64,000 nt of DNA from a virus, in the IMG/VR virus record IMGVR_UViG_3300028182_000001, positions 94,404-158,403 of that record; one strand, written 5' to 3'. A program made the position numbers and the translations under genes. The notes under the pieces were generated by a model. It had not been told where the DNA came from, made no database searches, and was given only the letters and a program-made list of their open reading frames with translations. Of this stretch, positions 3,822-63,556 are shown one piece after another (position 1 is the stretch's first letter; each line of letters opens with the position of its first letter).

Positions 3822-4121
3822 ATGACGGTGAATAGAAAAGAGATTGCAAGACGTGCGGCCCACATCGGTAACTACGATATCGGTGGGACAGAAGAACTAA
3901 CAAAGATAATCGAAGATGTTATCGTTAGTGCCCTAGCAAACGGGGAAAGTGTGAAGTTCGGTAAAGTATGTAAATGGGATATCGAGGAAGTACCTGAGAA
4001 GAGAGCATACGATGGTCTAAATAAAAAGTATTTTACTAGACCAGCGAAGCGCATACCGAAATACAAGCCACTAAAACGACTTACAGATATTGAGCTGCCA
4101 GTACAAAAGAAAGAGGAGTAA
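3822..4121 (+). CDS. HU/IHF/TF1-like DNA-binding protein
   Basis: NRKEIA...VIVSALANGESVKFGK...PAKRIPKYKP pattern. Confidence 0.85.
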   Translation: MTVNRKEIARRAAHIGNYDIGGTEELTKIIEDVIVSALANGESVKFGKVCKWDIEEVPEKRAYDGLNKKYFTRPAKRIPKYKPLKRLTDIELPVQKKEE

Positions 4122-4135
4122 CGATCCTCTTTTTT
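4112..4135 (+). terminator. Rho-independent terminator
   Basis: AGAGGA-N7-TCCTCT followed by Ts. Confidence 0.75.
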
Positions 4136-4150
4136 CTTTGTAATTTATTG

Positions 4151-4179
4151 TTGACTTATAGACAAAGTTACAGTAATAT
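4151..4179 (+). promoter_or_regulatory. sigmaA-type promoter for the methyltransferase pair
   Basis: TTGACT-N17-TAATAT. Confidence 0.85.
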
Positions 4180-4222
4180 TATCTACAGATACAGAATACA
4201 TTATTAAGTTGAGGAGGTAATC

Positions 4223-5245
4223 ATGGACGAACTAAGAGTAGTAGAACTGTTTGCAGGATACGGTAGCCAATCAATGGCACTGAAACGAGCAAACATCAAT
4301 TATAAAACTGTAGCGATTGCAGAGATTGATAAGGACGCACTGGTTTCTTATGAAGCAATCCACGGCAAACCAAATAACCTTGGAGACATTACCAAGGTAA
4401 GAGGAGAAGACGTTCCTGACCACGACTTCATGACGTATTCATTCCCTTGTACAGACATCTCTGTATCAGGTGCGATGAAAGGTCTATTGGAAGGTTCAGG
4501 TACAAGCTCTAGTACGTTATGGGATGTAAAGAGAGTAATAGAAGCGAAGAAACCTAGATTCCTAATGATGGAAAACGTAGACAACCTTGTTATCAAATTC
4601 ATGGACGACTACCTACTATGGTTAAAGTACCTAGAATCACAAGGGTATGCTACATCGTGGAAAGTTATTGACGCATCTCCTTACGTACCACAAAGACGTA
4701 AACGTGTTATAGCAATCTCTCGATTAGATGGACAGGCATTCCCGTTCCCTGAAGACCCTACGGAGCGTACATATGATTTAATAGACGTGCTAGAGGAGTT
4801 CGATGATGCAGAAGCATTAGAGAGCTTTAAAGACCCTACAGTGCGAAGTGCTACAGTAGACCCTGTTACATATTATAACCCGAATTCAGATTACTATAAA
4901 CTGCAACCTGAGAATAGTAGAGCATCATTCATTGGATACATAGGGAACCAACCGAAACAGGCTACACGAGTATATGAACCTATCACGGCTTCAACGTTGA
5001 CTGCTAATGGTGGCGGCCAAGGTGGGAAGACAGGTCTGTATCACCTAGGTACGCATATCCGAAATCTTAGTCCGTTAGAAGCGTGGCGCATCATGGGTGT
5101 GAGTGACGAGGACTTCTACAAGGCAAAAGCAACAGGTATCAAGAAGACCCAACTACTACGTCAAGCAGGGAACTCTATCGTAGTTGATATCATGGTACCA
5201 ATATTTGAAAAGCTCTTTAAAGATTATATGAAGGAGACAAAATAA
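4223..5245 (+). CDS. DNA cytosine-C5 methyltransferase, full length
   Basis: Motifs I ELFAGYG, IV SFPC, VI ENV, VIII QRRKR, IX RNLSPLEAWRIMG, X QAGNSIV. Confidence 0.95.
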   Translation: MDELRVVELFAGYGSQSMALKRANINYKTVAIAEIDKDALVSYEAIHGKPNNLGDITKVRGEDVPDHDFMTYSFPCTDISVSGAMKGLLEGSGTSSSTLWDVKRVIEAKKPRFLMMENVDNLVIKFMDDYLLWLKYLESQGYATSWKVIDASPYVPQRRKRVIAISRLDGQAFPFPEDPTERTYDLIDVLEEFDDAEALESFKDPTVRSATVDPVTYYNPNSDYYKLQPENSRASFIGYIGNQPKQATRVYEPITASTLTANGGGQGGKTGLYHLGTHIRNLSPLEAWRIMGVSDEDFYKAKATGIKKTQLLRQAGNSIVVDIMVPIFEKLFKDYMKETK

Positions 5246-5246
5246 T

Positions 5247-5912
5247 ATGACAAAGAAGAAACTAAAAGTACTAGAATTATTTGCTGGCACGAGGTCAGTA
5301 GGTAAAGCATTCGAAGCACAGGGACACGAGGTATATAGTGTTGAGTGGGATCAGAAACATCCAGGAATCCATTGGTACGCAGATATATCGAAAATCACTG
5401 CACAGGAAATCATCGAACGCTTTGGTAAACCTGATATCATTTGGGCTAGTCCTGATTGTACAAGCTACTCAGTAGCAGGTATCTCGCATCACCGTAGAAA
5501 GGATGACGATGGTAACTTACGTCCTATTAGTGAGTATGCCCAATTCTGCGACACTACAAACCAACACGTAGTAGATTTAATTCGAGAACTTCAACCGAAG
5601 TACTACTTCATTGAGAATCCTCGTGGTGGAATGAGAAAGATGAACTTCATGCAGGATGACGCATTACCGAATGGTGGTAAACGTTACACAGTTACATATT
5701 GCCAGTACGGGGACACTCGTATGAAGCCAACTGACTTATGGACTAACCATCCTGAGCCGAAGTTTAAAGAGCCTTGTAAAAATGGTATGCCTTGTCACGT
5801 AGCTGCCCCTCGTGGAAGCGCAACAGGTACACAAGGTATAAAAGGGTCTGTAGACCGTTCACGCATCCCTGAGGAGCTATGCAACCACGTAGCGAAGATT
5901 TCTGAAGAGTAA
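5247..5912 (+). CDS. Short DNA cytosine-C5 methyltransferase-like protein
   Basis: Motif I ELFAGT, IV-like ASPDC, VI ENP; 221 aa. Confidence 0.85.
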   Translation: MTKKKLKVLELFAGTRSVGKAFEAQGHEVYSVEWDQKHPGIHWYADISKITAQEIIERFGKPDIIWASPDCTSYSVAGISHHRRKDDDGNLRPISEYAQFCDTTNQHVVDLIRELQPKYYFIENPRGGMRKMNFMQDDALPNGGKRYTVTYCQYGDTRMKPTDLWTNHPEPKFKEPCKNGMPCHVAAPRGSATGTQGIKGSVDRSRIPEELCNHVAKISEE

Positions 5913-5918
5913 AAGATT

Positions 5919-5945
5919 GAGAGGTGTAACAACCTCTCTTTTTTT
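5919..5945 (+). terminator. Rho-independent terminator
   Basis: GAGAGGT-N6-ACCTCTC followed by Ts. Confidence 0.85.
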
Positions 5946-5960
5946 GTGTCTATTATCTTG

Positions 5961-6196: not shown

Positions 6197-9100
6197 TTGA
6201 AAGCATTATTTCTACAAGAGTTTGTAAGAGAAAGTCACATGCAACGACAGAATGATGGATCGTTTAAAAACATATTCCTCCAAACTAACGGAGGAAAGCT
6301 GCTAAAGAAACTAATCCATGAAGGGTTAGAGCTAACGAAGAATGACTACTACATCGACTATGCGTTCTTCAAAGTACCTGAGGTTATTACTCGGGATAAT
6401 CGAGATAGAGCCATTAAGTACAAACCACCAACTGCAAAAGAATCGAAACCTGAATACGAGAACTTATACAAACGTATCGTACAGGACAAGCCTGACATTA
6501 TCATTCCTTCAGGTAAACTTGGGTGTAAAGCTCTACTGAATGTAGCAGAGATTTCTAAGCTACGAGGAGTACCACAACAAGTTACAATCACTGCAAATAT
6601 TGAAATGTTTGATGAGAGCGCAGTTGTTGAAGGTGTAGATAACTCAGGTTGGATTACAGAAACGTATACACATACATGTTGGGTTATGCCTATATACAGT
6701 ATGGAATACATGCTTGTTAATCCGAAGATTCAGAACTTAGTAGAAGCAGACTTCGGTACATTGAAGAAGTACGTAGAGCAAGGTGACAACGCATTTATTG
6801 CGAAGGATGTAAAGTACGAAGATGTTACAACTATTGAACGTGTACGAGAAATCTTCACCAAGATAGTAAAAGAAGCTCCTATCGTAGCGTGGGATTTAGA
6901 GACCAATACGTTAGAAGCCGATAAAGCAGGTTCTAAACCACTAGTAATCTCTCTTTGTTGGAAAGAGGGTACAGGTGTAACCATTCCGTTAGAACATAAG
7001 GACTGGACATGGCTTCCTGGTCACTTAGCTGAGATTTACAACTACATAAAAGAATTTGTTGCCGATCCGAAGATTGTTAAAGTCGGACACAACATCAAGT
7101 TCGATATCAGGTTCCTACGCTTATCTAGAGGGTTTACAGAGTTCAATAACCATCGTGATACAAAAACAATGTACTACCTACTTGTAAACCAGGATGTAAA
7201 AGGTTCATTACGTCTATCCGACTTAACATTCGAATTTACAGATATGGGTGGATATGATAGAGCGCTAGAGGACTTTAAAAAGGATTACAAAGAGAACTAC
7301 AAGAAGAACGAGAAAGAACGTATTGCAAAACTAAAAGAAGAATTTAAAGCGCAATGTGCAAAAGAAAGAGCAGAAGTACAACAGCAAGTGAAGGACGCAA
7401 AAGCAGAATTACGTTTACTCAAGAAGGAATCTCCAACGACTGAAATTCTTAATAGAATAACAGAGTTACAGGAGATTGCACAACGTAAGTATGTGAAACC
7501 TTCGATGCCTGACTTTGGGACCGCAGGTTCACCAGTCAATCCTGTAGACGGATCGGACTTCTGTTATGAGTGGATTCCACTATTCGAAATGCTTTCTCCG
7601 TACGCTAGTGGTGACGTAGACGTGTGTTTACGTATCTATAACCAACTAGACCAAAGATGTCAGCAAAAAGGCTTAGAGCACATTAGAGAGCTTTATACGA
7701 ATCATTATCCACAACTATCTGCAACACTTGCTAAAATCGAAGCAACGGGAATCAAGTTAAACATCCCGTACGTACAAGCACTAGCAGATGCGTACCAAAA
7801 GGAAGAGGATCGTTTAACGGCAATCATCCGTAAGTTCCCTGAAGTAAAGCAAATGGAAGACGAACATCGCCAGCTTTACCAAATGGGATTAAACGAACTT
7901 GCAAAGCCTGTAGCTGAGAGAGACAAGAAGATAGCGGCCTTACGTGATAAGTACAAGGACAAGCTAGAGTTTAACGCAAACTCTCCTGACGACAAGAAAG
8001 AGGTACTGTACAAGATTACAGGCATTCGACTACCGTTCGATAAAGAGCGTCTAGTAGACTCTGTATTCGAGAAGGGACTAAAAGAGGAAGAGATTGAATG
8101 GTGCCATTACAAAACGAATACTGCGAACTTGGAGTACATCGCCAAGGAGTATCCTGAGTACAAGGAACTAGCAGAAGTTATGATCCATCACTCACTCGTT
8201 AAAACACGTAAGCAAAGTTTCACGTACAAGTTCCTTAGTATGGTAGATATGAACGATATCTTGCACGGTACGTTCAACCCTGAAGGTACAGAAACATCTC
8301 GTCTATCGTCAAAAGACCCGAACTGTCAGAACTTCCCTCGTAAGACGGAAGATGTAACACGGTTCGACTATCAGCACCCTATTAAACGAATGTTCGTAAG
8401 TAGATTCACAAACGGAGCACTACTACAACTCGATTACTCTTCACTTGAATCTCGTATCATGGCTTTAATTGCATACGATGAGGAAATGATTGAAGCGTTC
8501 TTAACGAAGAAGGATGTACATACGCACACTGCTTCACTGGTATTCAAAAAGGCAGAAGAAGATGTAACAGGTGATGAACGTACGGCCGCTAAACGGGTAA
8601 CATTCGGACTAGCGTACGGAGAAGCACCATTCTCGTTCGCACCTAAATACAACATGACAATCCAAGAAGCAGAGAAACTATTTGATGACTACTTCAAGAA
8701 CAAACCGAAGATTAAAACGTACATTGATGAAACGAAAGAGAAAGCTAGACAGACGGGTTATATCTCTTGTATGCAAGGTTTCACTCGTAACTTACGAGAT
8801 GTGTATTCGCAAGATAAACAGAAACGTAATGGTGCGTTACGTCAGTCTGTAAATACACAGGTACAGGGATCGGGTGCATTCTTAACGAATAACTCATTAA
8901 TCTACATCAACAACATTATTGAGAAGCAGGGACTACGTTCTCGTATCGTTCTAACTGTACACGATAGTATTGTTATAGATTGTCCACCCGAAGAAATTCA
9001 CATCATGGCTCACATCGGTAAAACAGTAATGGAGAACTTACCGATCCCTTGGTTACACATCGAGTGGAAAGGTGAAACAATTCGATTCCCTATTACGGCA

Positions 9101-12236: not shown

Positions 12237-13448
12237 ATGGCAAAAGCAAAAACAAAGAAAGCACCTGCAAGCGTGGATTTAGACTTATCGGCTTTAAATT
12301 TAAGTGGCGGCCTAGTCTTACTGAGAGATTCAGATTATGCGAAGGTATTTGACAGACTTCCTCTATTCTTACCGAAGATTGATAAAATCCTAGGTGGCGG
12401 CCTACCGTTCGGACGAATGATTGAGGTTGCAGGAGTACCATCGGGTGGTAAATCAACTTTCACTCACCACGTAATGCGTGTAGCGACTGCTCTAGGTTGC
12501 ATTTGCGTATTGATTGACGTAGAGGGTACGTCAGATAATGAACGTTTATCTTCGCTAGGTATTGACACAAGTAAAGTATTAGTGAAGCAACCTGATCCTG
12601 ATAAAGGTACTGCACTAACGGTTGAAGAGGTTGGACAGACAGTAGAAGAAACGTTAAAACTATTCGGAGAGAAATATCCTCACGTACCTGTAGTGTACGT
12701 ATGGGACTCTGTAGGTTCTACACCTTCTATGGTAGAGTTAGAGAAAGACTTTGGTGAACAGAACGTTGGGGCTAGAGCTAAGGCTATCACACAGTTCGTA
12801 ACAAAGGTTACACCAATGGTATCTCAATCTAAATCACTGTTTATCGGTATCAACCAAGTACGTGACGATATCGGTGGAAATCCAATGTTCAAAACATACA
12901 AGGTTCCAGGTGGTAAAGCATGGGAGCACGCTGCTACACTTCGATTAGAGATTAAAAAGAAATCTTCTATCTTCAAAGGATCAGGAGCTAACAAGGAACG
13001 TCTAGGACATATCATGGGTGTTAAAACTCAGAAGTCTAAAGTATCTCGACCATTCCAAGAAGCAGACGGGACGTTACTAGCAGATACAGGTATCGACTAC
13101 GAGTACAACCTAGCTAAAATGGCAGAGGATGTGAAAGTCCTAGGTACAACTGGTCAAAGCTATGAGTACATTGATGCTTTAGGAGTTAACTACAAACAGA
13201 AGAAAGAGAACTTCATCGAGTGGTTACGTGACGAAGGTAGTCATGTCCGCCAAGAACTACTAAACAAGTTGATTCAAGTAGAGTTCCCTGAAGGGTACAC
13301 TGCATTGAAGAATGAAACATTAGATATCTCAGGTTGGATTGACCAAGTAGTTCCAGTGGTATCTCCTGAATTTTCGCAATCTTCCGATAATTCAGACAAT
13401 ATCGAGGACTTACTAGCAAAAGAAGCAGAAGACATTTTAAAAGGTTAG
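12237..13448 (+). CDS. recA: RecA-family recombinase
   Basis: Walker A GVPSGGKS; WDSV, INQVR and PGGKA motifs. Confidence 0.95.
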   Translation: MAKAKTKKAPASVDLDLSALNLSGGLVLLRDSDYAKVFDRLPLFLPKIDKILGGGLPFGRMIEVAGVPSGGKSTFTHHVMRVATALGCICVLIDVEGTSDNERLSSLGIDTSKVLVKQPDPDKGTALTVEEVGQTVEETLKLFGEKYPHVPVVYVWDSVGSTPSMVELEKDFGEQNVGARAKAITQFVTKVTPMVSQSKSLFIGINQVRDDIGGNPMFKTYKVPGGKAWEHAATLRLEIKKKSSIFKGSGANKERLGHIMGVKTQKSKVSRPFQEADGTLLADTGIDYEYNLAKMAEDVKVLGTTGQSYEYIDALGVNYKQKKENFIEWLRDEGSHVRQELLNKLIQVEFPEGYTALKNETLDISGWIDQVVPVVSPEFSQSSDNSDNIEDLLAKEAEDILKG

Positions 13449-14824: not shown

Positions 14825-15300
14825 TGGCTAAATTAGCAGATGTACTAAAGCAAGCAACAGTAACTTTAAAAGTAGGTGACTACTTAGCAGCGTTCACTCG
14901 TCCTGAAGGTTACGTTCCTTCTATTAAAGGGACAACTTCACTTCACACTGGAAAATACCTATTCAAAATCGTAGGTGTTGGTACAGCAGAAGGTGACGGA
15001 TCGTACAAGAAAATGAACATCGTACCTGTAGTACATAAAGCAGACCAAAAAGGATACGAAGACAAGTTAAAAAGTCCAATCGTAATCGTGGAACCGTTAA
15101 AAGTGACACACGCAACTGGCCGCAATGACAATGAGTACAAGGACGTTTACCACGGTAACTCGTTCCACACTCACACAGTGAAAGCAGGAGAAGAAGGACG
15201 TTCAGCGTTACTTGCATTCCTTGAGTTCACGAAAACTGAATATTCATTAACTGTGAATGACTTCATGGTTGGTGGAGAAGAACTTATCGCAGGTGCGTAA
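14824..15300 (+). CDS. Hypothetical protein
   Basis: TAATG coupling with holin; followed by terminator. Confidence 0.8.
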   Translation: MAKLADVLKQATVTLKVGDYLAAFTRPEGYVPSIKGTTSLHTGKYLFKIVGVGTAEGDGSYKKMNIVPVVHKADQKGYEDKLKSPIVIVEPLKVTHATGRNDNEYKDVYHGNSFHTHTVKAGEEGRSALLAFLEFTKTEYSLTVNDFMVGGEELIAGA

Positions 15301-18942: not shown

Positions 18943-19130
18943 TTCTACACCTACAATTGTGGTGGGCCGCAGATGGAACAGAAGATTACGGGCAAGCAAT
19001 TCGGTGGCTCTATCTTTACGGTGTTATAAGTGAAGCACGAATGAAAAAATTAGATAGTAGAAACTATAAGAAGTGGAATAAGCGCAATAGTAAATCGTTC
19101 GATGACTATTTAAAAGTAGCGAGAGTATAA
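18939..19130 (+). CDS. Hypothetical protein
   Basis: ATGA overlap. Confidence 0.65.
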   Translation: MILHLQLWWAADGTEDYGQAIRWLYLYGVISEARMKKLDSRNYKKWNKRNSKSFDDYLKVARV

Positions 19131-21192: not shown

Positions 21193-21927
21193 ATGGATAA
21201 ATTCGGGAACCGCATGAAAGGTTATGAAAATGCTTATAGAATAAAGTTACCACAGAGAATGCCAGTAATCGTGCGTATTGATGGTAAGGCGTTCCACACT
21301 TATACAAAAGGTATGAACCGACCATTCGATTCAACACTAGCATACGCAATGTGGGAAACTTGTAAATACTTAGTGAAGAACGTTATGGGTTGTAAACTAG
21401 CATACACACAGTCTGACGAAATTAGTCTACTAATCACAAACTATGAAAAGCTAACAACTCAATCATGGTTCGATAATAACCTACAGAAGATCGTTTCAGT
21501 GGCCGCATCGCTCGCTACAGCGAAGTTTAACGAGGTTATGAGGGAAACATACCCTGAGAAGGAACTAGCTCTATTTGACGCTAGAGCGTGGGTCTTACCA
21601 CAAGATGAGGTAAACAACTACTTCTTATGGAGACAACAGGACGCTACAAAGAATAGTATCTCAATGGTAGCACAAGCAAACTTCCCACACAAATCTCTGC
21701 AAGGTCTAAATGGAAGACAGTTACAGGATAAGTTAATGCTAGAAAGAGATGTTAACTGGAATGACTTACCTGTATGGCAGAAACGTGGAGTATGTATCGT
21801 AAAAGAAATCTACACAAAGAACGGAGCATTACGATCCCGTTGTGCAGTAGATGAGAGCACGCCAGTATTCTCACAAGATACGGATTATATTAATGGGTTA
21901 GTATACCCAACTAAGGAGGAGAAGTAA
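21193..21927 (+). CDS. thg1: tRNA(His) guanylyltransferase Thg1 / Thg1-like 3'-5' RNA polymerase
   Basis: RIDGKAFH, YTQSDEISL, FDAR, WRQQDA, W.KRG motifs. Confidence 0.95.
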   Translation: MDKFGNRMKGYENAYRIKLPQRMPVIVRIDGKAFHTYTKGMNRPFDSTLAYAMWETCKYLVKNVMGCKLAYTQSDEISLLITNYEKLTTQSWFDNNLQKIVSVAASLATAKFNEVMRETYPEKELALFDARAWVLPQDEVNNYFLWRQQDATKNSISMVAQANFPHKSLQGLNGRQLQDKLMLERDVNWNDLPVWQKRGVCIVKEIYTKNGALRSRCAVDESTPVFSQDTDYINGLVYPTKEEK

Positions 21928-34811: not shown

Positions 34812-35024
34812 ATGAAAGGTGTAGGAGTTATAATTGGTTCGTTGATTGGGCTGGCTATCGTTGGTTTAGTGGCGTTGTTCTACTCATTAGTACCTGCGGC
34901 CATGATTTGGATTATCGCAACACAGGCATTCAGTTTTGACACGACATTCAAAGGGATTTACTGGGCTACATTCTTCGTAATGTTCCTGTTACTTCTATTC
35001 AAGGGGATCGCAAAAGAAAAATAA
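34812..35024 (+). CDS. Small membrane protein, similar layout to preceding gene
   Basis: Shared P...IW...YW pattern. Confidence 0.75.
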   Translation: MKGVGVIIGSLIGLAIVGLVALFYSLVPAAMIWIIATQAFSFDTTFKGIYWATFFVMFLLLLFKGIAKEK

Positions 35025-44324: not shown

Positions 44325-46635
44325 AACGAAGGGAGCTAAGAACATATCCAACTACTTCTCCATTGTAGATGATATCGGTAAAGCATTTGAGCAGATTATG
44401 AATGCAGACACAGAAGGACTATTCGGGCTAGAGCTTCAATTGTATCCAGGAGGGAGAAGTCTTGTTCTTGTCTCTCCTCCTAGTCTTCGGATCGGTAACG
44501 GAATTAGTCCTCGTCAGACGCTCGTAGAAGGCGACACAGAAGACTTGTCTTACTATGAGGGATATTTACTCGAACCTAACTTCCTCCCACTGTACGGGGC
44601 TTATAAAGGTGCCTTACTGAACGAACTATCTTCTATAGAATTGAAGGGAGGTGAAATCATTGAATTGCAGTGGCTGCTCCGTAGACGGTACGACAATTGG
44701 AGACCGAATGCAGTAGCAAGATATAGCAGTTATTTAGAAGGTAATGACTACCCGATGCAGTCTAAACTAGGTAGAGGTCTTCAAACAAAAATTCTGAAAA
44801 CTCTGAACAAGATAGCTTCATTCGAAACCAAGAGACCGTATATCCAAGAAGTAGAAAATAAAATTGTAGACGAAGCATATCAATTCCAGTTAAGAGTAGT
44901 CGTCCGTTCTAAGGAGCCTAAGAGCCTTGTACAGTGCTTGGATAACGTCCTAAGCAAATACGACTCGTACAATGCTATCCGACTCTATAAACGGAAGGAG
45001 CGTGGGATAAAGCAGGAATACACGGATCGTATCATGACAGGAGATACGGACACACAGATATTAAGTAGAACAGAGCTTGTATCCTTATTCGGTGGGACCG
45101 CAATAGAAGTTACACCAGTACAACCAGCCGTAACTGAAAAGCAACTAACGGATTACAGAGTGACCGAGGTTAAGACCGATGGAATAATAGCTCTATTGCC
45201 AAAGTATGATAGGGAGAAGGTTGAAGCAGACGAAGGATTAATCACGAAACTGGCTGAAGCAATGAAACGAGTTGGGTTAATTAGTCAAGCACGTCTAACA
45301 AATAGTACCATCACTTCAGGTATCAGGCTCACGGTTATCCAATGTGATATACCGAAACAAAAGACATTGAGCCACATTGTAGGTAAAGCAGTCGATATAC
45401 AGGCCGCACTTGGAGTTGTATCTTTAAGCGTTGAACAAGGGAGCACGGCAGATACAGTACGATTTACGATCCCAAACGAAGTTCCTTCTATAATAGGATT
45501 ACGAGAACTACTGGAAGATGCACGGTTCCACGAGTATGCTCAGGACGCAGTACTACCATTCATCGTAGGAGTAAACGAAATAGACGAACCGATATACCTG
45601 TCACTCGGGAAGCTTGTACACCTGATGGTGGCAGGGACTACAGGCTCAGGTAAATCGGTATTCGTAAATACACTCATTATATCCTTATTGGCTACGTATC
45701 CACCTGAGTTGCTTCGCTTCTATATGATTGATCCGAAACTAGTAGAGCTTAGTCATTATAAAGACCTACCACACGTAGAGCACGTAGTCACAGACATGGA
45801 GAAGGCTTCGGCTATGCTCAGTAAACTGGTGAAGGAGATGGAACGAAGATACTCACAGTTCAGCGAGAACGGTGTAAAAGGTATCAAAGTGTATAACGAG
45901 AAGATGGATGTAAAAATGCCGTATATCGTCTGTGTAGTGGATGAGTATGCAGATTTACGGGATACAAACCCTGAAGTAGAGGAATATCTTGTTAGGCTAG
46001 GTCAGAAAGCACGGGCCGCAGGAATACACTTAGTTATTGCCACACAGAGACCGAGTTCAACTGTTATTAGTGGGCGTGTAAAAGCAGTCATACCGAGCGC
46101 AATAAGCTTCAACCTTAATTCTAATACAGACTATAAAACTGTATTTGGGAAAGGGATCGGAAGTACGAAATTATTAGGACGTGGGGACGGGATCATGAGG
46201 ATAGAAGGTTGGGAGAAAGAGTTCCAACGCTTTCAGAGTTCGATTGTAAGCCCCATAGAGTCCCGTGAGGAGCAAGTGTATAAGGACATAATAAATTACT
46301 ACTCAGATGTAAAAACAATCCCATTAGACGTTCAGAAGCCTGTTATAGAAGAAGTCATATCATTTGACGGAAATATAGAACTTGAAGAAGATATAGAACT
46401 GGACTACGACATCATTACAGAAGAGGACTTATTAGAGAAGTTAAAAGGTGTTATAGCACGTACTAGAGAAACGAGAGTTGCAGAGTTACGTAAGCTAATG
46501 AAGATTAAAATGAATGTTCTATCAGACCTTATGAATAAGCTGGTGGAGGAAGGTTGGTTAGTGAAGCATCCTTCTAGGGCTAAAGGTTATGAAATATCCA
46601 TAGATGAGTTGACGTTGGCTCGATACAAAAAATAA
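44314..46635 (+). CDS. ftsK: FtsK/SpoIIIE-family DNA translocase
   Basis: HLMVAGTTGSGKS, IDPK, VVDEYAD, RAAGIHLVIATQRP, LLGRGD; C-terminal wHTH gamma-like domain. Confidence 0.93.
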   Translation: MWTKTKGAKNISNYFSIVDDIGKAFEQIMNADTEGLFGLELQLYPGGRSLVLVSPPSLRIGNGISPRQTLVEGDTEDLSYYEGYLLEPNFLPLYGAYKGALLNELSSIELKGGEIIELQWLLRRRYDNWRPNAVARYSSYLEGNDYPMQSKLGRGLQTKILKTLNKIASFETKRPYIQEVENKIVDEAYQFQLRVVVRSKEPKSLVQCLDNVLSKYDSYNAIRLYKRKERGIKQEYTDRIMTGDTDTQILSRTELVSLFGGTAIEVTPVQPAVTEKQLTDYRVTEVKTDGIIALLPKYDREKVEADEGLITKLAEAMKRVGLISQARLTNSTITSGIRLTVIQCDIPKQKTLSHIVGKAVDIQAALGVVSLSVEQGSTADTVRFTIPNEVPSIIGLRELLEDARFHEYAQDAVLPFIVGVNEIDEPIYLSLGKLVHLMVAGTTGSGKSVFVNTLIISLLATYPPELLRFYMIDPKLVELSHYKDLPHVEHVVTDMEKASAMLSKLVKEMERRYSQFSENGVKGIKVYNEKMDVKMPYIVCVVDEYADLRDTNPEVEEYLVRLGQKARAAGIHLVIATQRPSSTVISGRVKAVIPSAISFNLNSNTDYKTVFGKGIGSTKLLGRGDGIMRIEGWEKEFQRFQSSIVSPIESREEQVYKDIINYYSDVKTIPLDVQKPVIEEVISFDGNIELEEDIELDYDIITEEDLLEKLKGVIARTRETRVAELRKLMKIKMNVLSDLMNKLVEEGWLVKHPSRAKGYEISIDELTLARYKK

Positions 46636-49197: not shown

Positions 49198-49386
49198 GTG
49201 GTATATGTGGAAAAATACATAAGTTTACCTGGTGATGAACCAATGAAGACACCATTCGAGTATGCAGTAGGGGAAGTTATTCGAGTGAACAACAACAGGC
49301 CGCATAAGTGTTACAAGAAAGAAGTGAAGGACGGAAAGCTATTCCAGTACTTCAAAGAAGGACGAGTAGTTGTAGTATGGGACTAA
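49198..49386 (+). CDS. Hypothetical protein (start likely GTG 49207)
   Basis: AAGGAGGTG RBS. Confidence 0.7.
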   Translation: MVYVEKYISLPGDEPMKTPFEYAVGEVIRVNNNRPHKCYKKEVKDGKLFQYFKEGRVVVVWD

Positions 49387-50022: not shown

Positions 50023-52059
50023 ATGGAATTCAAACAATTTAAGAAAGCATTGAAAGCAAACTTTAAGGAAATGGTAAAAGATACAGACCACTTATATGAG
50101 GTAGAAGTGGACAAGGATGTAATGTGGGACTTGTACTTAGATAGCCATACTGAAGGAACTAACGAAGTCTTCCGTGAGCGTAGACAAGCTGATTGCAGTG
50201 CTTGTAAACAGTTCATCCGAAACATGGGTAACTTAGTCGTTATCAAGAATAACAAAGTAACTACTATTTGGGATTTCGAAACGAACAGTGCGTACCAACC
50301 AGTAGCCAATGCTTTAGCGAAATTCATCAAGAGTCACGCAGTGGCAGATGTGTGGGTAAACAAGTTCAGTAAGATTGGTGTTGATAGCAACCTAGAAGAC
50401 TACCAAGGACAAGTCCTAACTTGGCAACATCTTAACGTAGATATCCCTGCTAAATTTGTTACTCGTAGCAGTAACTCAGAAGCTGAAATCCGTGGCGGTC
50501 TACGAGATACACGAAATGTGTTCCTACGCTCACTAATCGAAATCTCAGAAGAGAGCTTAATGACTGTATTAGAACTGATCCACTCAAATACATTGTACAA
50601 AGGTGCAGAATGGAAAGCAGTATTAACTCAGTTCCTTGCACATAAACGAGTATTCCTTAGCTTAGGAACAGTTTCAGAAAGAGAGAACTACGCTTGGGAG
50701 CAGTCAGTAAAAATCGGTGGTGCAATGGGTCGTATCCGTAACCACAGCATCGGTACTTTACTGGTAAATATCAGTGAAGGAATGGAACTAGACCGAGCAG
50801 TTAGAGCATATGAAGTGATCGTAGCACCATCTAACTACAAACGTCCTAAAGCAATCTTTACGAAGAAGATGGTTGAAGAAGCGGAGAAAATGAGCTTAGA
50901 AATGGGCTTCCAAGATTCATTCGGTAGACGTTTCGCAACATTAAACGACATCACTGTAAACAACATCTTATTCTCTAACAAAGAAGCGGCCAAACGAATC
51001 GCAGGAGCAGGTATTTTCGCAGAAGCATTGAATGCAGTAGCAGTTAATCCTAAACAATTCACACGAGTTGAGGAAATCTCAATCGATAACTTCATTAACA
51101 ATGTACTACCAATGGCAAGAGAGCTTGAAGTGTATCTAGAGAATAAACAAGCTAACAACATGGTATCTCTGATTGCACCTGAAAACAAAGATGCTAAGAC
51201 AATGTTCAAATGGAATAACGGATTCAGCTGGGCGTACTCAGGTAACATCACTGATAGCTCTATGAAAGAGAATGTTAAGTCTGCGGGAGGTAAGGTCGAT
51301 GGTGTGTTAAGATTCTCGATCCAGTGGAATGATGACGAGTTCGATGGTAATGACTTAGATGCTCACTGTATCGAACCAGGTGGCAACTTAATCTACTACG
51401 GAGAAAAGGTTAACAGACGTACTGGCGGTAAGTTAGACGTGGATATCATCCATCCTAGCCGTAATGTACCTGCCGTAGAGAACATCACATGGGGTAACAA
51501 GCGCAACATGGAAGTAGGGACATACAAATTCCTTGTGCATAACTTTAACAACCGAGGTGGTAAGTCAGGATTCAGAGCTGAAATTGAGTTTGATGGACAA
51601 GTATTCTCATTCGACTACACGAAAGCATTACGAGATGGTGAAAAAGTTGTTGTTGCAGAAGTATACTTTGACGGTACTAACTTCGCAATCAAAGAGCTAT
51701 TACCATCTAACGTATCAACTAGAGATGTGTGGGGATTAAAAACAAACCAATTCATTCCTGTATCTACAATGATGTTCTCTCCTAACTATTGGGACGAGCA
51801 GCAAGGAATTGGGCACCGTCATTACTTCTTCATGCTGAAAGATTGCGTGAACCCTGAGCAACCAAATGGTTTCTACAATGAGTTCCTTACAGAGGAGTTG
51901 ATGCAACACAAACGAGTATTCGAGTACCTTGGAAGTCGTACAGCAGTCAAAGATGTAGAGGATCAGTTATCAGGTGTAGGTTTCTCATCTACTAAGAGAG
52001 CTGAGTTAATCGTCAAAGTCAAAGGTCAAACAGAACGAGTAGTAAAAGTAAAATTCTAA
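50023..52059 (+). CDS. Large protein with N-terminal CxxC and C-terminal YfaP/DUF2135-like domain
   Basis: DCSACKQFI; DLDAHCIEP.G..IYY...GGKLDVD...VENI. Confidence 0.7.
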   Translation: MEFKQFKKALKANFKEMVKDTDHLYEVEVDKDVMWDLYLDSHTEGTNEVFRERRQADCSACKQFIRNMGNLVVIKNNKVTTIWDFETNSAYQPVANALAKFIKSHAVADVWVNKFSKIGVDSNLEDYQGQVLTWQHLNVDIPAKFVTRSSNSEAEIRGGLRDTRNVFLRSLIEISEESLMTVLELIHSNTLYKGAEWKAVLTQFLAHKRVFLSLGTVSERENYAWEQSVKIGGAMGRIRNHSIGTLLVNISEGMELDRAVRAYEVIVAPSNYKRPKAIFTKKMVEEAEKMSLEMGFQDSFGRRFATLNDITVNNILFSNKEAAKRIAGAGIFAEALNAVAVNPKQFTRVEEISIDNFINNVLPMARELEVYLENKQANNMVSLIAPENKDAKTMFKWNNGFSWAYSGNITDSSMKENVKSAGGKVDGVLRFSIQWNDDEFDGNDLDAHCIEPGGNLIYYGEKVNRRTGGKLDVDIIHPSRNVPAVENITWGNKRNMEVGTYKFLVHNFNNRGGKSGFRAEIEFDGQVFSFDYTKALRDGEKVVVAEVYFDGTNFAIKELLPSNVSTRDVWGLKTNQFIPVSTMMFSPNYWDEQQGIGHRHYFFMLKDCVNPEQPNGFYNEFLTEELMQHKRVFEYLGSRTAVKDVEDQLSGVGFSSTKRAELIVKVKGQTERVVKVKF

Positions 52060-54351: not shown

Positions 54352-54681
54352 ATGAAAGTAGTTGACGAGAAGGTTTACGAAGATTGGAAAGCAAAGAATA
54401 CAGACGGTTACGGTGCAGGTATCTTCCGATATGCTGAGAAGTGGGCTAACTTAATGGAAGAGGAAATCGAGAAAGGTTCAGGACTTCGATACATAGCTAG
54501 TAGTCTATCTCATAAAGCTGATACAGAAGGTATTACAGGCTTCATGTACGGTGCGGCCGTTAGTATTCTCTCACAATGTTGGGTTCACGGAGAAGAGTTA
54601 AAGAAGTGGCACAACAAAGAGTATGACTACGAGGGTGAAGGAGCAGCTAACCCTGCACTGATTACTATTACAAAGAAGTAG
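54352..54681 (+). CDS. Hypothetical protein (GITGFMYG...W.HGEEL..WHN motif)
   Basis: ORF with RBS. Confidence 0.8.
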   Translation: MKVVDEKVYEDWKAKNTDGYGAGIFRYAEKWANLMEEEIEKGSGLRYIASSLSHKADTEGITGFMYGAAVSILSQCWVHGEELKKWHNKEYDYEGEGAANPALITITKK

Positions 54682-54831: not shown

Positions 54832-55564
54832 TTTCATCGGTTGTGGTAGCGCATTTAACACAGCATTAGGTAATAACAGTGCTTACATCAAGGAGGACGG
54901 TATTCTATTCATGATTGACTGCGGTAGTGCCAACTTCGATAGAATCAAGCGTAGCGGCCTGTTAGAGGACGTAGAAGACATCGTAGTATTAATGACACAT
55001 ACACACCCTGACCACGTAGGATCGTTAGGAGACTTAATCTTCTATAGTTACTTCTGTATGGGACAAGTTAAAGTACCTAACTTAACTGTATACGCACCAT
55101 ATGATATGAAGATTAGTAAAGTGTTACAGGGTATGGGAGTAGAACGAGAGTGTTATAGACTCGTACAGTTTGATAACTCTAACCAGTATCCACCTGGGTT
55201 CCGTAAAGATGGGTTCCGTATCCAGTTCCAAGTAGTCCCTAACCGACATGTACCTGAGATTGTATGCTACGGCTACTTGATTACATATAAAGATAAAACT
55301 ATCTATTATAGTGGGGATTCTAATACTATCTCACCATTCATACTGAATATGTTCAAAAAAGGTGAGATTGACTACTTCTATCAGGATACTTGCCAAGCAG
55401 ACTATGAAGGTAATGTTCACCTATCGTTGCGAGAACTCAGTGAACTGATCCGTCCTTGGGACAAACCTGAGAAAGTATACTGTATGCACTTAGATGAGAG
55501 CTTCAACCGAGAGCAAGCAGAGGGTTATGGCTTTAATGTTGTACAACCTACTATAACTATATGA
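54824..55564 (+). CDS. Metallo-beta-lactamase-fold hydrolase (RNase Z/Apyc1-like)
   Basis: GCGSAF..NNSA, IDCG, THTHPDH, YYSGD, VH, MH. Confidence 0.85.
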   Translation: MFNFIGCGSAFNTALGNNSAYIKEDGILFMIDCGSANFDRIKRSGLLEDVEDIVVLMTHTHPDHVGSLGDLIFYSYFCMGQVKVPNLTVYAPYDMKISKVLQGMGVERECYRLVQFDNSNQYPPGFRKDGFRIQFQVVPNRHVPEIVCYGYLITYKDKTIYYSGDSNTISPFILNMFKKGEIDYFYQDTCQADYEGNVHLSLRELSELIRPWDKPEKVYCMHLDESFNREQAEGYGFNVVQPTITI

Positions 55565-57149: not shown

Positions 57150-57584
57150 ATGGCAAAAGATATCGTGAGTGTAAATGATGAGAAGGTATTAGCATTAAAA
57201 AAATTAGTAGACGAGAAGAAAGAGAAGTTAGCAAGTAGAAAATCATTACGTCAAAAATCGCTAACAACTTGCACGCTTGATTTAGATGGTACACGTCATA
57301 ACTTCAATGTACTGAACACGAAGCAGTTAAACGGTATTCTAGTACGTTTACACGCATTAGTATTAGCGGCCGAGGACTTAGATGTTGAAATTGATGTAGT
57401 AGAATTAAGTGGTTTCCCTCTATCTCATTGGATTACAGACTTAAAAGGTAAGATTAACGAAATGTCTATCCGTGAGGAAGAAGCAGAATTACGTAAAGCA
57501 GAAGCGGCCCTAGACAAGTTGCTATCTAAAGACAAGAAAGTAGAACTAGAGCTAGATTCTTTAGCAGCGTTCTTAAAAGGTTGA
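57150..57584 (+). CDS. Coiled-coil hypothetical protein
   Basis: ORF with RBS. Confidence 0.8.
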   Translation: MAKDIVSVNDEKVLALKKLVDEKKEKLASRKSLRQKSLTTCTLDLDGTRHNFNVLNTKQLNGILVRLHALVLAAEDLDVEIDVVELSGFPLSHWITDLKGKINEMSIREEEAELRKAEAALDKLLSKDKKVELELDSLAAFLKG

Positions 57585-60266: not shown

Positions 60267-60757
60267 GTGATTACATGGTAAATGGTAACTGTACAGTCTG
60301 TGGGAAGTATCTACCAAAAGGTACACTATGTTGTGACGAAATAGTACAAAGTAACTATAACAAGTGGTGGGACGAAATGCAAAAGAAGAAAGAGGATCAG
60401 CAACCTGCATTAGTACTTAACGTACGTAAACGTTCTATTGGTACAGGAATCAGAGGGATTAAGGATTTAATGAAAGAAAGCGGTCCGAAGTTCTTCGCAG
60501 ATGTAGTAGCGAAAAATAACAGATTAAGAGAGGAAGAGAAATCAATGAAAAAAGAGTACTACGTGCTACGTATATATAATAGTGAGTGTGGTTTAGTAAA
60601 CGAGCATACAAGTAAAGAGAAATACGAAATTATGAACAAAATCTATTTAGCGATAAGTGACCGTGATTTTGTACTGCAAGACTTAGATATTGTAGAAACG
60701 GGTTTGCCTGATGATGTTATTACTCTATACAAAGTTACAGGGAGGTTCGTTCGATGA
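60254..60757 (+). CDS. Hypothetical protein with Cys cluster; possible internal start at 60545
   Basis: CTVC...CC; RBS. Confidence 0.65.
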   Translation: MAIVGDYMVNGNCTVCGKYLPKGTLCCDEIVQSNYNKWWDEMQKKKEDQQPALVLNVRKRSIGTGIRGIKDLMKESGPKFFADVVAKNNRLREEEKSMKKEYYVLRIYNSECGLVNEHTSKEKYEIMNKIYLAISDRDFVLQDLDIVETGLPDDVITLYKVTGRFVR

Positions 60758-61525: not shown

Positions 61526-61740
61526 TGAATGACTTTCAAGTAATGGCACTATTGGGAGCTATAGTTACGGCTATAGTCTTCCTAATAGTATTAGTAGTAT
61601 ATAACTTTGTATTCATGTTGAAACTGGCCGCAGTCATTACATTTATTGGTATTGTAGTACTTGGTATATACGCAATATTTGCAGGGATCGGATATATTGT
61701 CCACTTACTAATAAACTTATTCAGTAGAAAGGGGAAATAG
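61525..61740 (+). CDS. Small membrane protein
   Basis: Hydrophobic; coupled to upstream gene. Confidence 0.7.
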   Translation: MNDFQVMALLGAIVTAIVFLIVLVVYNFVFMLKLAAVITFIGIVVLGIYAIFAGIGYIVHLLINLFSRKGK

Positions 61741-61743
61741 AAC

Positions 61744-62067
61744 ATGGAAACTACTACAGATAAAAGAAAAGCAGAATGTATCCATTGTAAGGTAGAAGAC
61801 ATGGTACCTAAAGACAAAATTAAAGTAGCAGACGGGAACGACTACTGGGCATGTGAACCCTGTATAAAAGAGAAGAGAGAGATGGCACGCTCCTATAAAA
61901 TGGTATTCATGGATCAGGGAATATTCGGAGCTACCTTATTAGAGGATATCAACCAAGAAGAGTTAAGTAGAATCCTTCATGAGCTATTGACCGTGCATAA
62001 AGGAGTTGTACTCAGTCTAGAGGAAGTAACAGTAAAACGTAAAGAGAAAGCACAGGTATTACACTAA
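61744..62067 (+). CDS. Zinc-finger protein
   Basis: CIHC...CEPC. Confidence 0.7.
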   Translation: METTTDKRKAECIHCKVEDMVPKDKIKVADGNDYWACEPCIKEKREMARSYKMVFMDQGIFGATLLEDINQEELSRILHELLTVHKGVVLSLEEVTVKRKEKAQVLH

Positions 62068-62095
62068 TACATATATAGTATAGGAGGATTACATA

Positions 62096-62482
62096 ATGAC
62101 AGAAGTAGAAAAGAAAGAAGAAGTATTAGAATTAGAACCAATCGTAGGTCACTTAGTAGTAAAAGGGGGATTACATACAGAGTTCCTTAATGCTACAACA
62201 AGCGCAATTAAGAAGTATACCAAGCAAGGATATGAAGTAGAAACACATTACCAAATGGTGACCGATCCAAATAGTGGTGAGTTAACACATTCTGCATATC
62301 TAGTAGGTAAGTTGAAAGAAACGAAACCTGAAGAACCTGAACTAATAACTGTACACATACCGCATGTTAGCCAAGAAGCACTAAGTAAAGTAGAAGAGTG
62401 GGTAGAGAGTTATTGGGGAACAGGACATATGCCAAATGGTATATATAATACGATTATGGATTTAATAGATTCAGCAAAATAA
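62096..62482 (+). CDS. Hypothetical protein
   Basis: ORF with RBS. Confidence 0.75.
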   Translation: MTEVEKKEEVLELEPIVGHLVVKGGLHTEFLNATTSAIKKYTKQGYEVETHYQMVTDPNSGELTHSAYLVGKLKETKPEEPELITVHIPHVSQEALSKVEEWVESYWGTGHMPNGIYNTIMDLIDSAK

Positions 62483-62496
62483 ATTTCAATTAGTAG

Positions 62497-62526
62497 TTGA
62501 CTAACAAGAAACAATCATGGTACTAT
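62497..62526 (+). promoter_or_regulatory. sigmaA-type promoter firing into a non-coding region
   Basis: TTGACT-N18-TACTAT. Confidence 0.7.
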
Positions 62527-63361
62527 AACAGTGAGCTTAATAAGAGAAACAAACAATACTATATGAGTAATAAATATGTATGCTAGACGGATCATAATAT
62601 GAAACATTGTAAGCAACGACAAGCGACATAACAGTAAGAGTGAGAACTTCTGTTAAAGCATATATAGAATGGAAAGTATAGCAATACATAATAAAAACAA
62701 GTATAGTAGAGAGAGAGTTTCAAATAGAGAGCTTACCTGTATAGATGAAATAGGTACAGTAGTAAGAGAGTATAGTATATAGAGCAAAGGTATCTATATA
62801 GTATATAAGGAATGAGGAACATAGATAATAACAAATAAAACGTATAGGAACGAACGAGTTACACCTATATCTATATACACACCCACCCAAAAGTCGATAT
62901 AGATTTGTAATTATACTATAGAGCCTTCATGTTTTCAACCGTATATACTATATAGTAACACACCTAGTGAGGGAATCACATCCATATATACCGAATCGGA
63001 AAATACACGTATTCTTCAAATACCCTGTAGTTAGACATAAGGTTCGTATATCGCTCACACATTCTGACTCCTGTATAGTAATTGATATAGTATAGGCACT
63101 ATAGAGATGTTATATAAGAGAAACCAAACGCAGACCGTACCTACGACTACGGAAAGCACAAAACATTTGATGAGACTCTTAAAAAGACTCGTTCACAGTC
63201 GAACCTGGGGCGTGCAAATAAGGTGCGCTATAGACTAGACTCTCATACCTGCATCTATAATTCTATTAGAGGTTAATAGTTGAAAGGATTGGTAGCTTTC
63301 CCCATAGGCCGCCGATCCTTTTGCTATATTGGTAGTAAGGCGTAGAAAGGTGGAATACATA

Positions 63362-63556
63362 ATGATATCACTAGCGTATACTGTACACTGTGACGAGTGT
63401 GCAACACAGGAGCCGTTAATAGCTCAATTACTAACGGAAGCACGATCTGAAGCAGCCAACATGGGTTGGACCGCAGAGAAGATGAGTACGGGGTCACAAC
63501 AATGGTACTGTCCTAGTTGCTCACTACAAAAGCTACAGGCCGCACAACAACAATAA
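63362..63556 (+). CDS. Zinc-ribbon protein
   Basis: CDEC...W...WYCPSC; AAAGGTGG RBS. Confidence 0.7.
   Translation: MISLAYTVHCDECATQEPLIAQLLTEARSEAANMGWTAEKMSTGSQQWYCPSCSLQKLQAAQQQ

What the first reader, a model, noticed from the sequence alone, without database searches (positions are those of the whole stretch)
3850..63545. GGCC occurs only inside GCGGCC/GGCCGC
Seen: about 30 GGCC sites (e.g. near 3857, 5015, 7936, 8584, 12309, 15118, 21501, 27817, 43122, 54555, 63307). Every one I found has GC directly on one side, where chance would give under 10%. Many are Ala-Ala written GCG GCC although the phage otherwise favours GCA/GCT. Established: methylating the first C of GCNGC in GGCCGC hits the inner C of GGCC (the HaeIII/BsuRI-blocking position), and the reverse also holds; Bacillus phage multispecific MTases with GGCC/GCNGC specificity are known. 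Inference: an MTase for one site shields the overlapping site from a different restriction enzyme. The sequence cannot tell which is the MTase target.
Basis: partly seen in the sequence, partly recalled or inferred. Interest (0 to 1): 0.75.

Follow-up and report, generated by a model that had tools for sequence, protein, structure and literature searches.

The report
Phage methylation shields leftover GGCC sites
In this Bacillus cereus phage and its close relatives, the restriction target GGCC survives only where it overlaps GGCCGC, most likely because one of the phage's two cytosine methyltransferases methylates that motif and so blocks the host enzyme.

Summary
All 30 GGCC in the window, all 72 in the 158-kb genome and all 423 in seven Caeruleovirus genomes lie in GCGGCC/GGCCGC. 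Four sister-genus genomes read in full have 0-1 GGCC, and all five searched carry no C5-methyltransferase and no GCGGCC. So GGCC is the restricted word, and the exemption goes with the phage's two methyltransferase genes (window 4223-5245 and 5247-5912).

The shielding idea holds, but GCNGC is not the best shield motif. GGWCC is locked the same way: 120 of 138 sites are GGACCGC, which contains no GCNGC, and only 1 is GGTCCGC. This points to an asymmetric motif GRCCGC. CGCG is not tolerated next to it (GRCCGCG stands unaided once in 694 motifs). By exclusion the methyl group sits on the first C, GR(m5C)CGC, which is the inner C of GGCC.

A second lock exists: GATC, CGCG and CGACG survive almost only inside GGATCR. 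GCGGCC is about 8-fold enriched, mostly as Ala-Ala. The likely reason is that free GCNGC is also selected against and this hexamer is its only shielded spelling.

No methylation was measured. Other first readers in this scan noted the same pattern in other windows of this genome, not on other DNA.

The parts
4223..5245 (+). C5-cytosine DNA methyltransferase A (340 aa), present in all Caeruleovirus genomes examined; candidate GRCCGC enzyme
   Evidence: Pfam PF00145 1.4e-51 over the full length. Motifs FAGYGS, FPC, ENV, QRRKR and GNS are intact. Full-length alignment to M.HhaI includes the target-recognition domain.
5247..5912 (+). Small C5-methyltransferase-like protein B (221 aa), always next to A; specificity unassigned (GGATCR by elimination)
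   Evidence: PF00145 matches only profile positions 1-113. FAGTRS, SPDC and ENPRG motifs and a Cys-rich tail. More than 8000 homologues at 70-84% identity in Firmicutes.
3855..3860 (-). GGCC in shield context (GCGGCC on +, so GGCCGC reads on -)
5013..5018 (-). GCGGCC
7934..7939 (-). GCGGCC
8584..8589 (+). GGCCGC
12307..12312 (-). GCGGCC
12397..12402 (-). GCGGCC
15118..15123 (+). GGCCGC
18965..18970 (+). GGCCGC
21501..21506 (+). GGCCGC
23729..23734 (-). GCGGCC
24471..24476 (-). GCGGCC
26499..26504 (-). GCGGCC
27818..27823 (+). GGCCGC
32788..32793 (-). GCGGCC, preceded by C: the one CGCG in the seven genomes that has only this motif beside it (CGCGGCC)
34642..34647 (-). GCGGCC
34896..34901 (-). 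GCGGCC
35712..35717 (-). GCGGCC
38562..38567 (+). GGCCGC
43120..43125 (-). GCGGCC
45402..45407 (+). GGCCGC
46014..46019 (+). GGCCGC
49298..49303 (+). GGCCGC
50986..50991 (-). GCGGCC
54553..54558 (-). GCGGCC
54954..54959 (-). GCGGCC
57366..57371 (-). GCGGCC
57504..57509 (-). GCGGCC
61626..61631 (+). GGCCGC
63307..63312 (+). GGCCGC
63538..63543 (+). GGCCGC
7518..7524 (+). GGWCC shielded as GGACCGC
38305..38311 (-). GGWCC shielded (GCGGTCC on +)
43450..43456 (-). GGWCC shielded (GCGGTCC on +)
45095..45101 (+). GGWCC shielded as GGACCGC
60480..60486 (-). GGWCC shielded (GCGGTCC on +)
63468..63474 (+). GGWCC shielded as GGACCGC

Best explanation
The window belongs to a Caeruleovirus, a Bastille-like myophage of the Bacillus cereus group. 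Host restriction against GGCC is strong enough that related phages have removed every GGCC. This genus carries two C5-cytosine methyltransferase genes. The inference is that one of them, tentatively gene A at 4223-5245, methylates an asymmetric six-base motif GRCCGC (complement GCGGYC) on its first C, giving GR(m5C)CGC. In GGCCGC that base is the inner C of GGCC, the position whose methylation blocks HaeIII-type enzymes. In GGACCGC it is the inner C of GGWCC. In GGCCGC it is also the first C of GCCGC, a GCNGC site. GGCC and GGWCC are therefore harmless only where they overlap this motif, and purifying selection removes every other copy. The hexamer is over-represented because free GCNGC is also selected against in this genus. 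Ala-Ala must contain GCNGC, and GCG-GCC or G|GCC-GCN is its only shielded spelling. Shown: the context rule, its statistics, its tie to methyltransferase-bearing genomes, the parallel locks, and the depletion of free GCNGC. Inferred: that methylation occurs, which gene does it, the exact motif, the methylated base, and which host enzymes are involved.
For: GGCC in context: 30/30 in the window, 72/72 in the genome, 423/423 in seven Caeruleovirus genomes. Four sister-genus genomes read in full have 0-1 GGCC. All five searched have 0 GCGGCC and no PF00145 gene. This genome has exactly two PF00145 genes and no detected N6/N4 or Dam-type methyltransferase. Of 138 GGWCC sites, 120 are GGACCGC, 1 is GGTCCGC and 17 are free. 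GNCCGC per genome is GA 38.7, GG 60.4, GT 1.0 and GC 0.4, against 17.2, 0, 27 and 9.2 in sister genera. The base after GRCCGC is G in 9 of 694 cases, and 8 of those 9 are also covered by CGCGATCC; GGATCG is followed by CG 40 times in 1337. This excludes the CpG cytosines as the methylated base. A parallel lock shows the principle is general: GATC is 92% GGATCR, and 40 of 50 CGCG are GGATCGCG. Free GCNGC is depleted 2-5 fold in every frame, and Ala-Ala is at 0.8 of expectation against about 1.1 in sister genera. Gene A has all catalytic motifs and a recognition domain alignable to M.HhaI. Deep Blue carries an extra methyltransferase and has the most CCWGG, 142 against 71-90.
Against: No methylation data exist for any of these phages. 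The Bc431v3 paper states that the effect of the two methylases is unknown (PMC3601020). No homologue of A or B with a known specificity was found. Two methyltransferases may have to account for three tolerances (GRCCGC, GGATCR and unlocked CCWGG). Synonymous retention of GCG-GCC (0.65) is no higher than for other Ala-Ala spellings (0.58-0.66), which sits badly with strong selection for the hexamer. Context-specific C-to-T rates showed no clear hypermutable C in the motif, but the test had low power. M.AciI, the known CCGC enzyme, methylates the CpG cytosines (PMC8112702), not the base deduced here. Hemimethylation must be enough to block the host enzymes.
Confidence: 0.7

Rival explanations
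1. One reading: a GCNGC-specific (Fnu4HI-type or multispecific) phage methyltransferase methylates G(m5C)NGC and thereby hemimethylates the inner C of GGCC in GCGGCC.
For: GCGGCC contains GCGGC, so the GGCC rule alone fits this equally well. From my own knowledge, GGCC/GCNGC multispecific enzymes occur in B. subtilis phages. An orphan enzyme with GGCC, GCNGC and GDGCHC specificity is reported in B. amyloliquefaciens (PMC3459991).
Against: GGWCC is locked to GGACCGC, which has no GCNGC, and GGTCCGC is absent. Free GCNGC is depleted 2-5 fold compared with sister genera rather than tolerated. CTGCAG occurs 0-1 times, so CTGCAGC is not tolerated either. BisI-family enzymes that cut G(m5C)NGC occur in B. 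cereus and B. thuringiensis (PMC4926085). This model gives no reason to prefer GCGGCC over GCGGCT or GCGGCA.
Confidence: 0.1
2. GGCC is avoided because host or prophage enzymes would methylate it and methyl-dependent nucleases of the next host would then cut it. Phage methylation in GRCCGC would keep GGCC from being marked or recognised.
For: B. anthracis cannot be transformed with M.HaeIII-methylated plasmid and carries at least three methyl-dependent nucleases. Prophage enzymes that methylate GGCC exist in the group (PMC4722110; PMC3459991).
Against: The phage's own m5C would also be exposed to such nucleases. There is no evidence that GRCCGC methylation blocks a GGCC methyltransferase. The classical reading explains the same facts with fewer steps.
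Confidence: 0.1
3. No modification is involved: the host GGCC enzyme simply cannot cut GGCC flanked by GC, or recognises a longer degenerate site.
For: None beyond the context rule itself.
Against: Five sister-genus phages of the same host species keep no GCGGCC at all. The exemption therefore goes with the methyltransferase-bearing genus, not with the host.
Confidence: 0.03
4. GCGGCC is a positively selected functional DNA motif, such as a binding, nicking or recombination signal, unrelated to restriction.
For: Eight-fold enrichment. Multi-step changes end in GCGGCC at orthologous positions, for example GCTGCT, ACTGCT or GTGGTC to GCGGCC.
Against: There is no strand bias (36 against 34 on the coding strand) and sites fall in all frames. 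Only 14 of 131 orthologous positions are conserved in all seven genomes, and the loss rate looks neutral. This reading does not explain why free GGCC is absent, or the parallel GGWCC, GATC and CGCG locks.
Confidence: 0.05

Closest known systems
Phage-encoded orphan C5-methyltransferases used against restriction (multispecific enzymes of Bacillus phages SPbeta, phi3T, SPR; prophage enzyme BCE_0393 of B. cereus ATCC 10987)
   Same: A phage-borne C5-methyltransferase with no cognate nuclease next to it, in a Bacillus phage, whose methylation blocks host GGCC-type restriction.
   Different: Those enzymes methylate every GGCC and carry several recognition domains; I recall sizes of about 440-500 aa. 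Here free GGCC is strictly avoided, so GGCC itself is not the target. Protection comes only through partial overlap with a longer asymmetric motif, and gene A is 340 aa.
Restriction-site (palindrome) avoidance in phage genomes
   Same: GGCC, CCGG, CGCG, GATC and GGWCC fall far below expectation.
   Different: Avoidance here is conditional. The residual sites are not random survivors: all of them lie inside one hexamer, which is itself 8-fold enriched.
M.AciI (CCGC/GCGG C5-methyltransferase)
   Same: The inferred motif contains CCGC, is asymmetric, and carries a C5 methyl group.
   Different: M.AciI marks the CpG cytosine on both strands in any CCGC (PMC8112702). Here GRCCGCG is not tolerated, so the CpG cytosines appear unmethylated. 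The motif also needs GR in front: GTCCGC and GCCCGC are nearly absent.
Blocking of restriction enzymes by overlapping Dam, Dcm or CpG methylation (laboratory knowledge)
   Same: The same chemistry: a methyl group placed by an enzyme of one specificity falls inside the site of another enzyme.
   Different: Here the effect appears to have shaped whole genomes by selection. It can be read backwards to predict the specificity and target base of uncharacterised methyltransferases.

Membership tests
C5-cytosine DNA methyltransferase (Pfam PF00145), gene A | Full-length profile match above the curated cut-off | tested here: met
   176.3 bits against a cut-off of 22, profile positions 2-324 of 324; TIGR00675 165.9 bits.
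C5-cytosine DNA methyltransferase (Pfam PF00145), gene A | Catalytic motifs I (FxGxG), IV (PC), VI (ENV), VIII (QxRxR) and X (GNS) | tested here: met
   ELFAGYGS, SFPCTD, MENV, PQRRKRV and AGNSIVV are read in the translation and aligned to M.HhaI.
C5-cytosine DNA methyltransferase (Pfam PF00145), gene B | Full set of motifs including a recognition domain and motifs IX-X | tested here: inconclusive
   Only profile positions 1-113 match (33.8 bits). SPDC and ENPRG are invariant in the family. The C-terminal 95 aa is Cys-rich and matches no known recognition domain. No fold was predicted.
Multispecific GGCC/GCNGC methyltransferases of SPbeta-type phages | Methylates every GGCC, so GGCC is not avoided | tested here: not met
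   0 free GGCC against 60 expected.
Multispecific GGCC/GCNGC methyltransferases of SPbeta-type phages | Several tandem recognition domains (about 440-500 aa, from memory) | tested here: not met
   A is 340 aa and B is 221 aa. The tblastn match of A to SPbeta (SPBc2) and SPR covers 66% of A at 33-34% identity.
AciI-type CCGC methyltransferase | Methylates the CpG cytosine on both strands | tested here: not met
   Tested by proxy only. GRCCGCG occurs unaided in 1 of 694 motifs, whereas GGATCGCG is tolerated. Direct methylation was not measured.
AciI-type CCGC methyltransferase | Acts on CCGC in any flank | tested here: inconclusive
   Shielding is seen for GGCCGC and GGACCGC but not for GGTCCGC. 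Sequence alone cannot test other flanks.
Restriction-site avoidance | Word far below a codon-aware expectation | tested here: met
   Free GGCC 0 against 60; CCGG 0 against 123; CGCG 5 against 132.
Restriction-site avoidance | A matching restriction enzyme in the hosts | not testable with these tools
   Host strains are unknown. The literature shows GGWCC and GCWGC systems and methyl-dependent nucleases in the group. I found no documented GGCC endonuclease.

The most novel reading that the evidence does not exclude
These phages use a minimal-methylation strategy. They place one m5C on one strand of a rare six-base asymmetric motif (GR(m5C)CGC, and likewise GGAT(m5C)R). That is enough to block several classical enzymes at overlapping sites (GGCC, GGWCC and GCSGC; GATC, CGCG and CGACG). 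It would leave too few methyl groups per site for the methyl-dependent BisI- and McrBC-type nucleases common in the B. cereus group. The genome is then rewritten so that sequences it cannot do without, such as Ala-Ala, are spelled with the shielded hexamer. If so, both enzymes have new specificities that were read from sequence alone.
Probability: 0.3. Interest if true: 0.75.

Novelty: new variant of a known kind. Interest (0 to 1): 0.6.

Why it matters
This is an unusually clean natural experiment: 423 of 423 sites across seven genomes, with sister genera as controls. It shows that a phage can combine site avoidance with narrow-specificity methylation, and that residual restriction sites can reveal the motif and even the target base of an uncharacterised methyltransferase. 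It yields concrete, cheap predictions (m5C at GR(m5C)CGC and GGAT(m5C)R) for a genus that has been proposed for biocontrol of B. cereus (my own knowledge). It also shows how deeply restriction pressure reshapes phage proteomes: whole dipeptides such as Gly-Pro are missing. The method could be applied to other phage groups to assign methyltransferase specificities from genome sequence.

Tried and rejected
1. Context-specific C-to-T rates from a seven-genome alignment, meant to locate a hypermutable m5C. There were too few events per context. Only G(C)GC stood out (6 of 26), and nothing was clear for CCGC.

2. Strict gain/loss counts per hexamer, using patterns of six genomes against one. The method is biased against gains at variable synonymous positions, so I did not use it.

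3. Vsr-type biased repair as the cause of enrichment. No PF03852 gene was found, and GCWGC is depleted rather than enriched.

4. Pent-up demand for Gly-Pro as the cause of GGACCGC enrichment. Only 2-7 Gly-Pro exist per genome, and GGACCGC sites lie in all frames.

5. Naming the specificity by homology. Neither A nor B has a named or characterised close relative, and NCBIfam gives only the superfamily.

6. Assigning B from other phages. Seventy-five viral loci with B homologues show no GATC or GGCC lock.

7. Assigning A from other phages. Viral homologues are at most 41% identical over the full length, and only a weak, unconvincing partial GGCC lock appeared in one contig family.

8. A general CpG or GpC methyltransferase. 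Rejected because GGCCG without the following C, CGCG and CCGG are all avoided.

9. Footprint of the third methyltransferase (C) in Bcp1, Hobo and JBP901. None was found.


Full report
**What the window is.** The window is the right 64 kb of a complete 158,403-bp phage genome with terminal repeats. Over window 3000-12000 it is 84-89% identical to Bacillus phages Hobo/BM15, Bcp1, Deep Blue, JBP901 and BCP8-2. These belong to genus Caeruleovirus, subfamily Bastillevirinae, and are myophages of the Bacillus cereus group.

**The observation.** A direct count finds 30 GGCC in the window: 18 as GCGGCC, 12 as GGCCGC, none otherwise and none as GCGGCCGC. Genome-wide the count is 72 of 72.

I shuffled synonymous codons within genes, which keeps proteins and codon usage. 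This predicts 60.0 +/- 6.9 free GGCC and 9.3 +/- 2.5 in-context sites. The genome has 0 and 72 (z = 24.6). So the rule is real. In addition, the hexamer is not merely tolerated but about 8-fold over-represented.

Fifty of the 72 sites encode Ala-Ala, as GCG-GCC (28) or G|GCC-GCN (22). GCG-GCC makes up 28 of 140 Ala-Ala pairs, although GCG and GCC are the two rarest Ala codons.

**Comparative test.** I fetched six further Caeruleovirus genomes and four genomes of sister genera in full, and searched a fifth (B4) by pattern and profile.
- All seven Caeruleovirus genomes have 51-72 GGCC each, 423 in total, and every one lies in GCGGCC/GGCCGC.
- BigBertha, Bastille, Evoli and Hakuna have 0-1 GGCC. 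Those four and B4 have 0 GCGGCC.
- The five sister genomes have no PF00145 match.
- This genome has exactly two PF00145 matches, at window 4223-5245 (A) and 5247-5912 (B), and no detected N6/N4 or Dam-type methyltransferase.
- A and B are present in every Caeruleovirus examined. Some carry a third enzyme (C in Bcp1, Hobo and JBP901; D in Deep Blue) or an HNH gene between A and B.

Therefore GGCC is the word under restriction in this host group. The exemption for GCGGCC goes with the methyltransferase-bearing genus. It is not a property of the host enzyme, because sister phages of the same host species keep no GCGGCC.

**Which motif shields.** GGCC alone cannot separate GCNGC from CCGC, since GGCCGC contains both. 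GGWCC can.
- Of 138 GGWCC in the seven genomes, 120 are GGACCGC, 1 is GGTCCGC and 17 are free. GGACCGC contains CCGC but no GCNGC.
- The A/T asymmetry implies a purine before CCGC.
- Counts of GNCCGC per genome are GA 38.7, GG 60.4, GT 1.0 and GC 0.4. In sister genera they are 17.2, 0, 27 and 9.2.
- GACCGC that is not part of GGWCC (15-26 per genome) is as common as in sister genera, while the other NNCCGC words are 1.3- to 27-fold rarer.

The unit that behaves as protected is thus GRCCGC (complement GCGGYC).

**Which base.** The phages also avoid CGCG (5-11 per genome against 160-186 in sister genera). This word serves as a reporter.
- GGATCG is freely followed by CG (40 of 1337), so a modification on the C of GGATC protects the first C of an overlapping CGCG.
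- In contrast, GRCCGC is followed by G in only 9 of 694 cases, and 8 of those 9 are additionally covered by CGCGATCC.
- If the second C of GRCCGC, its last C, or the C of GCGG on the other strand were methylated, GRCCGCG should be tolerated. It is not.
- By exclusion the methyl group is on the first C, GR(m5C)CGC.

It is also the inner C of GGWCC and the first C of GCCGC. M.AciI, the known CCGC enzyme, instead marks the CpG cytosines (PMC8112702), so this would not be an AciI-type enzyme. This deduction is an inference. It assumes that the CGCG activity is sensitive to m5C at those positions.

**A second, parallel lock.** GATC is absent from the sister genera but occurs about 300 times in each Caeruleovirus genome. 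Of those, 86-92% are GGATCR/YGATCC: in this genome 185 GGATCG and 83 GGATCA out of 292, and in the window 117 of 126. RGATCY and GGATCC are absent or nearly so. The rare CGCG (40 of 50) and several CGACG lie in GGATCGCG and GGATCGACG. Two locks and two methyltransferases is the economical mapping.

**Which gene does which** is not settled.
- A has all catalytic motifs, and its recognition domain aligns with that of M.HhaI.
- B belongs to a very large, highly conserved family of 210-220-aa enzymes in Firmicutes.
- Seventy-five other viral loci with B homologues show neither lock. Several have no GGCC at all, not even GCGGCC.

These points argue weakly that A, not B, is the GRCCGC enzyme.

**Why the hexamer is enriched.** Compared with sister genera, free GCNGC is depleted in Caeruleovirus in every reading frame.
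- The depletion is strongest where synonymous escape is possible: frame 1 has 7-12 against 33-45, and frame 2 has 16-30 against 37-100.
- It is weaker in the Ala-Ala frame, where GCNGC is unavoidable: 90-103 free plus 29-50 shielded, against 157-212.
- Ala-Ala itself is at 0.8 of expectation, against about 1.1 in sister genera.

So GCNGC also looks selected against. GGCCGC is the only GCNGC that carries the shield methyl group. This would funnel Ala-Ala, and xGC-GGC-C, into the shielded spelling.

Across the seven genomes, 131 orthologous positions hold the hexamer in at least one genome, but only 14 do so in all seven. Multi-step conversions such as GCTGCT, ACTGCT or GTGGTC to GCGGCC occur.

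One point does not fit neatly. Synonymous retention of GCG-GCC (0.65) is no higher than for other Ala-Ala spellings. The strength and nature of the force behind the enrichment therefore remain open. No Vsr gene is present.

**Host background from papers.**
- B. cereus ATCC 10987 has GGWCC and GCWGC systems and a prophage multispecific enzyme that covers GGCC (PMC3459991).
- BisI-family nucleases, which cut GCNGC carrying two to four m5C, occur in B. cereus and B. thuringiensis (PMC4926085).
- B. anthracis restricts M.HaeIII-methylated DNA (PMC4722110).

These facts make a phage GCNGC methylase costly. They make sparse, single-strand methylation attractive. They also leave open a rival reading in which GGCC is avoided because of methyl-dependent restriction.

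The only paper I found that discusses these methylases (Bc431v3, PMC3601020) says their effect on the DNA is unknown.

**Verdict.** The shielding idea is supported. Nothing about methylation has been measured, so the mechanism remains an inference, though one with sharp and cheap tests. Other first readers in this scan noted the CCGC and GGATC locks in overlapping windows of this same genome. I reached them independently and tested them here. Nothing similar was on record for other DNA.

Noticed in passing
window 1-64000 (117 of 126 GATC); whole genome 268 of 292: GATC survives almost only as GGATCR/YGATCC (GGATCG 185, GGATCA 83). RGATCY and GGATCC are absent or nearly so. Sister genera have 0 GATC. 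CGATCC is the most over-represented hexamer in all Caeruleovirus genomes examined for this.
   Followed up: yes
window 32787 and 42412; seven genomes: The few CGCG (40 of 50) and several CGACG sites lie in GGATCGCG and GGATCGACG. The GGATCR modification therefore shields them too, which places the modified base on the C of GATC.
   Followed up: yes
whole genome and relatives (loci L012-L093): Whole dipeptides are missing from the proteomes. Gly-Pro is 0 in BigBertha, Bastille and Evoli (about 88 expected) and 2-7 in Caeruleovirus (about 100 expected). Trp-Pro is 0-1 (16-19 expected). Pro-Gly is 1-2 in Bastille, Evoli and Hakuna (about 85 expected). Every spelling of these dipeptides contains GGNCC, GGCC or CCNGG.
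   Followed up: partly
whole genome and six relatives: Caeruleovirus, but not the sister genera, nearly lacks CCGG (0-2), CCAGA/TCTGG (about 1 against 291), GAGGC/GCCTC (0-3 against about 114), CGACG (about 3 against 83), GTCCGC (1 against 27), CCGCTC (0.9 against 21), CCCGC, and also CTGCAG, GGATCC and GAGCTC. The sister genera instead lack GATC, GGNCC and CCWGG. The two groups carry different restriction footprints despite the same host species.
   Followed up: partly
L003:1225-2484 (Deep Blue), L001:3459-4442 (Bcp1), L005:2203-2814 (BCP8-2): The methyltransferase cassette varies: an extra 419-aa enzyme in Deep Blue goes with the highest CCWGG count (142 against 71-90). An extra 327-332-aa enzyme in Bcp1, Hobo and JBP901 has no detectable k-mer footprint. 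An HNH gene lies between A and B in BCP8-2 and BMBsp2.
   Followed up: partly
window 5247-5912: Protein B belongs to a very large family: more than 8000 database proteins of 210-220 aa, 70-84% identical across Enterococcus, Bacillus, Oceanobacillus and Mammaliicoccus. The family has an unusual SPDC catalytic motif and a Cys-rich tail. I found no assigned specificity.
   Followed up: partly
record MN364664.1: 'Xanthomonas phage Xoo-sp15' is 86.6% identical to this Bacillus phage over 9 kb and carries the same methyltransferases. The stated host is probably wrong.
   Followed up: no
window 14668, 19434, 43797: Three free GGWCC sites lie in the window and six in the genome, three of them as CTGGTCCTG. 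GGWCC restriction is evidently less absolute than GGCC restriction.
   Followed up: no
window 3062-4121: A conserved 252-aa protein with no Pfam match and an HU/IHF-like DNA-binding protein lie directly upstream of the methyltransferases in all relatives examined.
   Followed up: no
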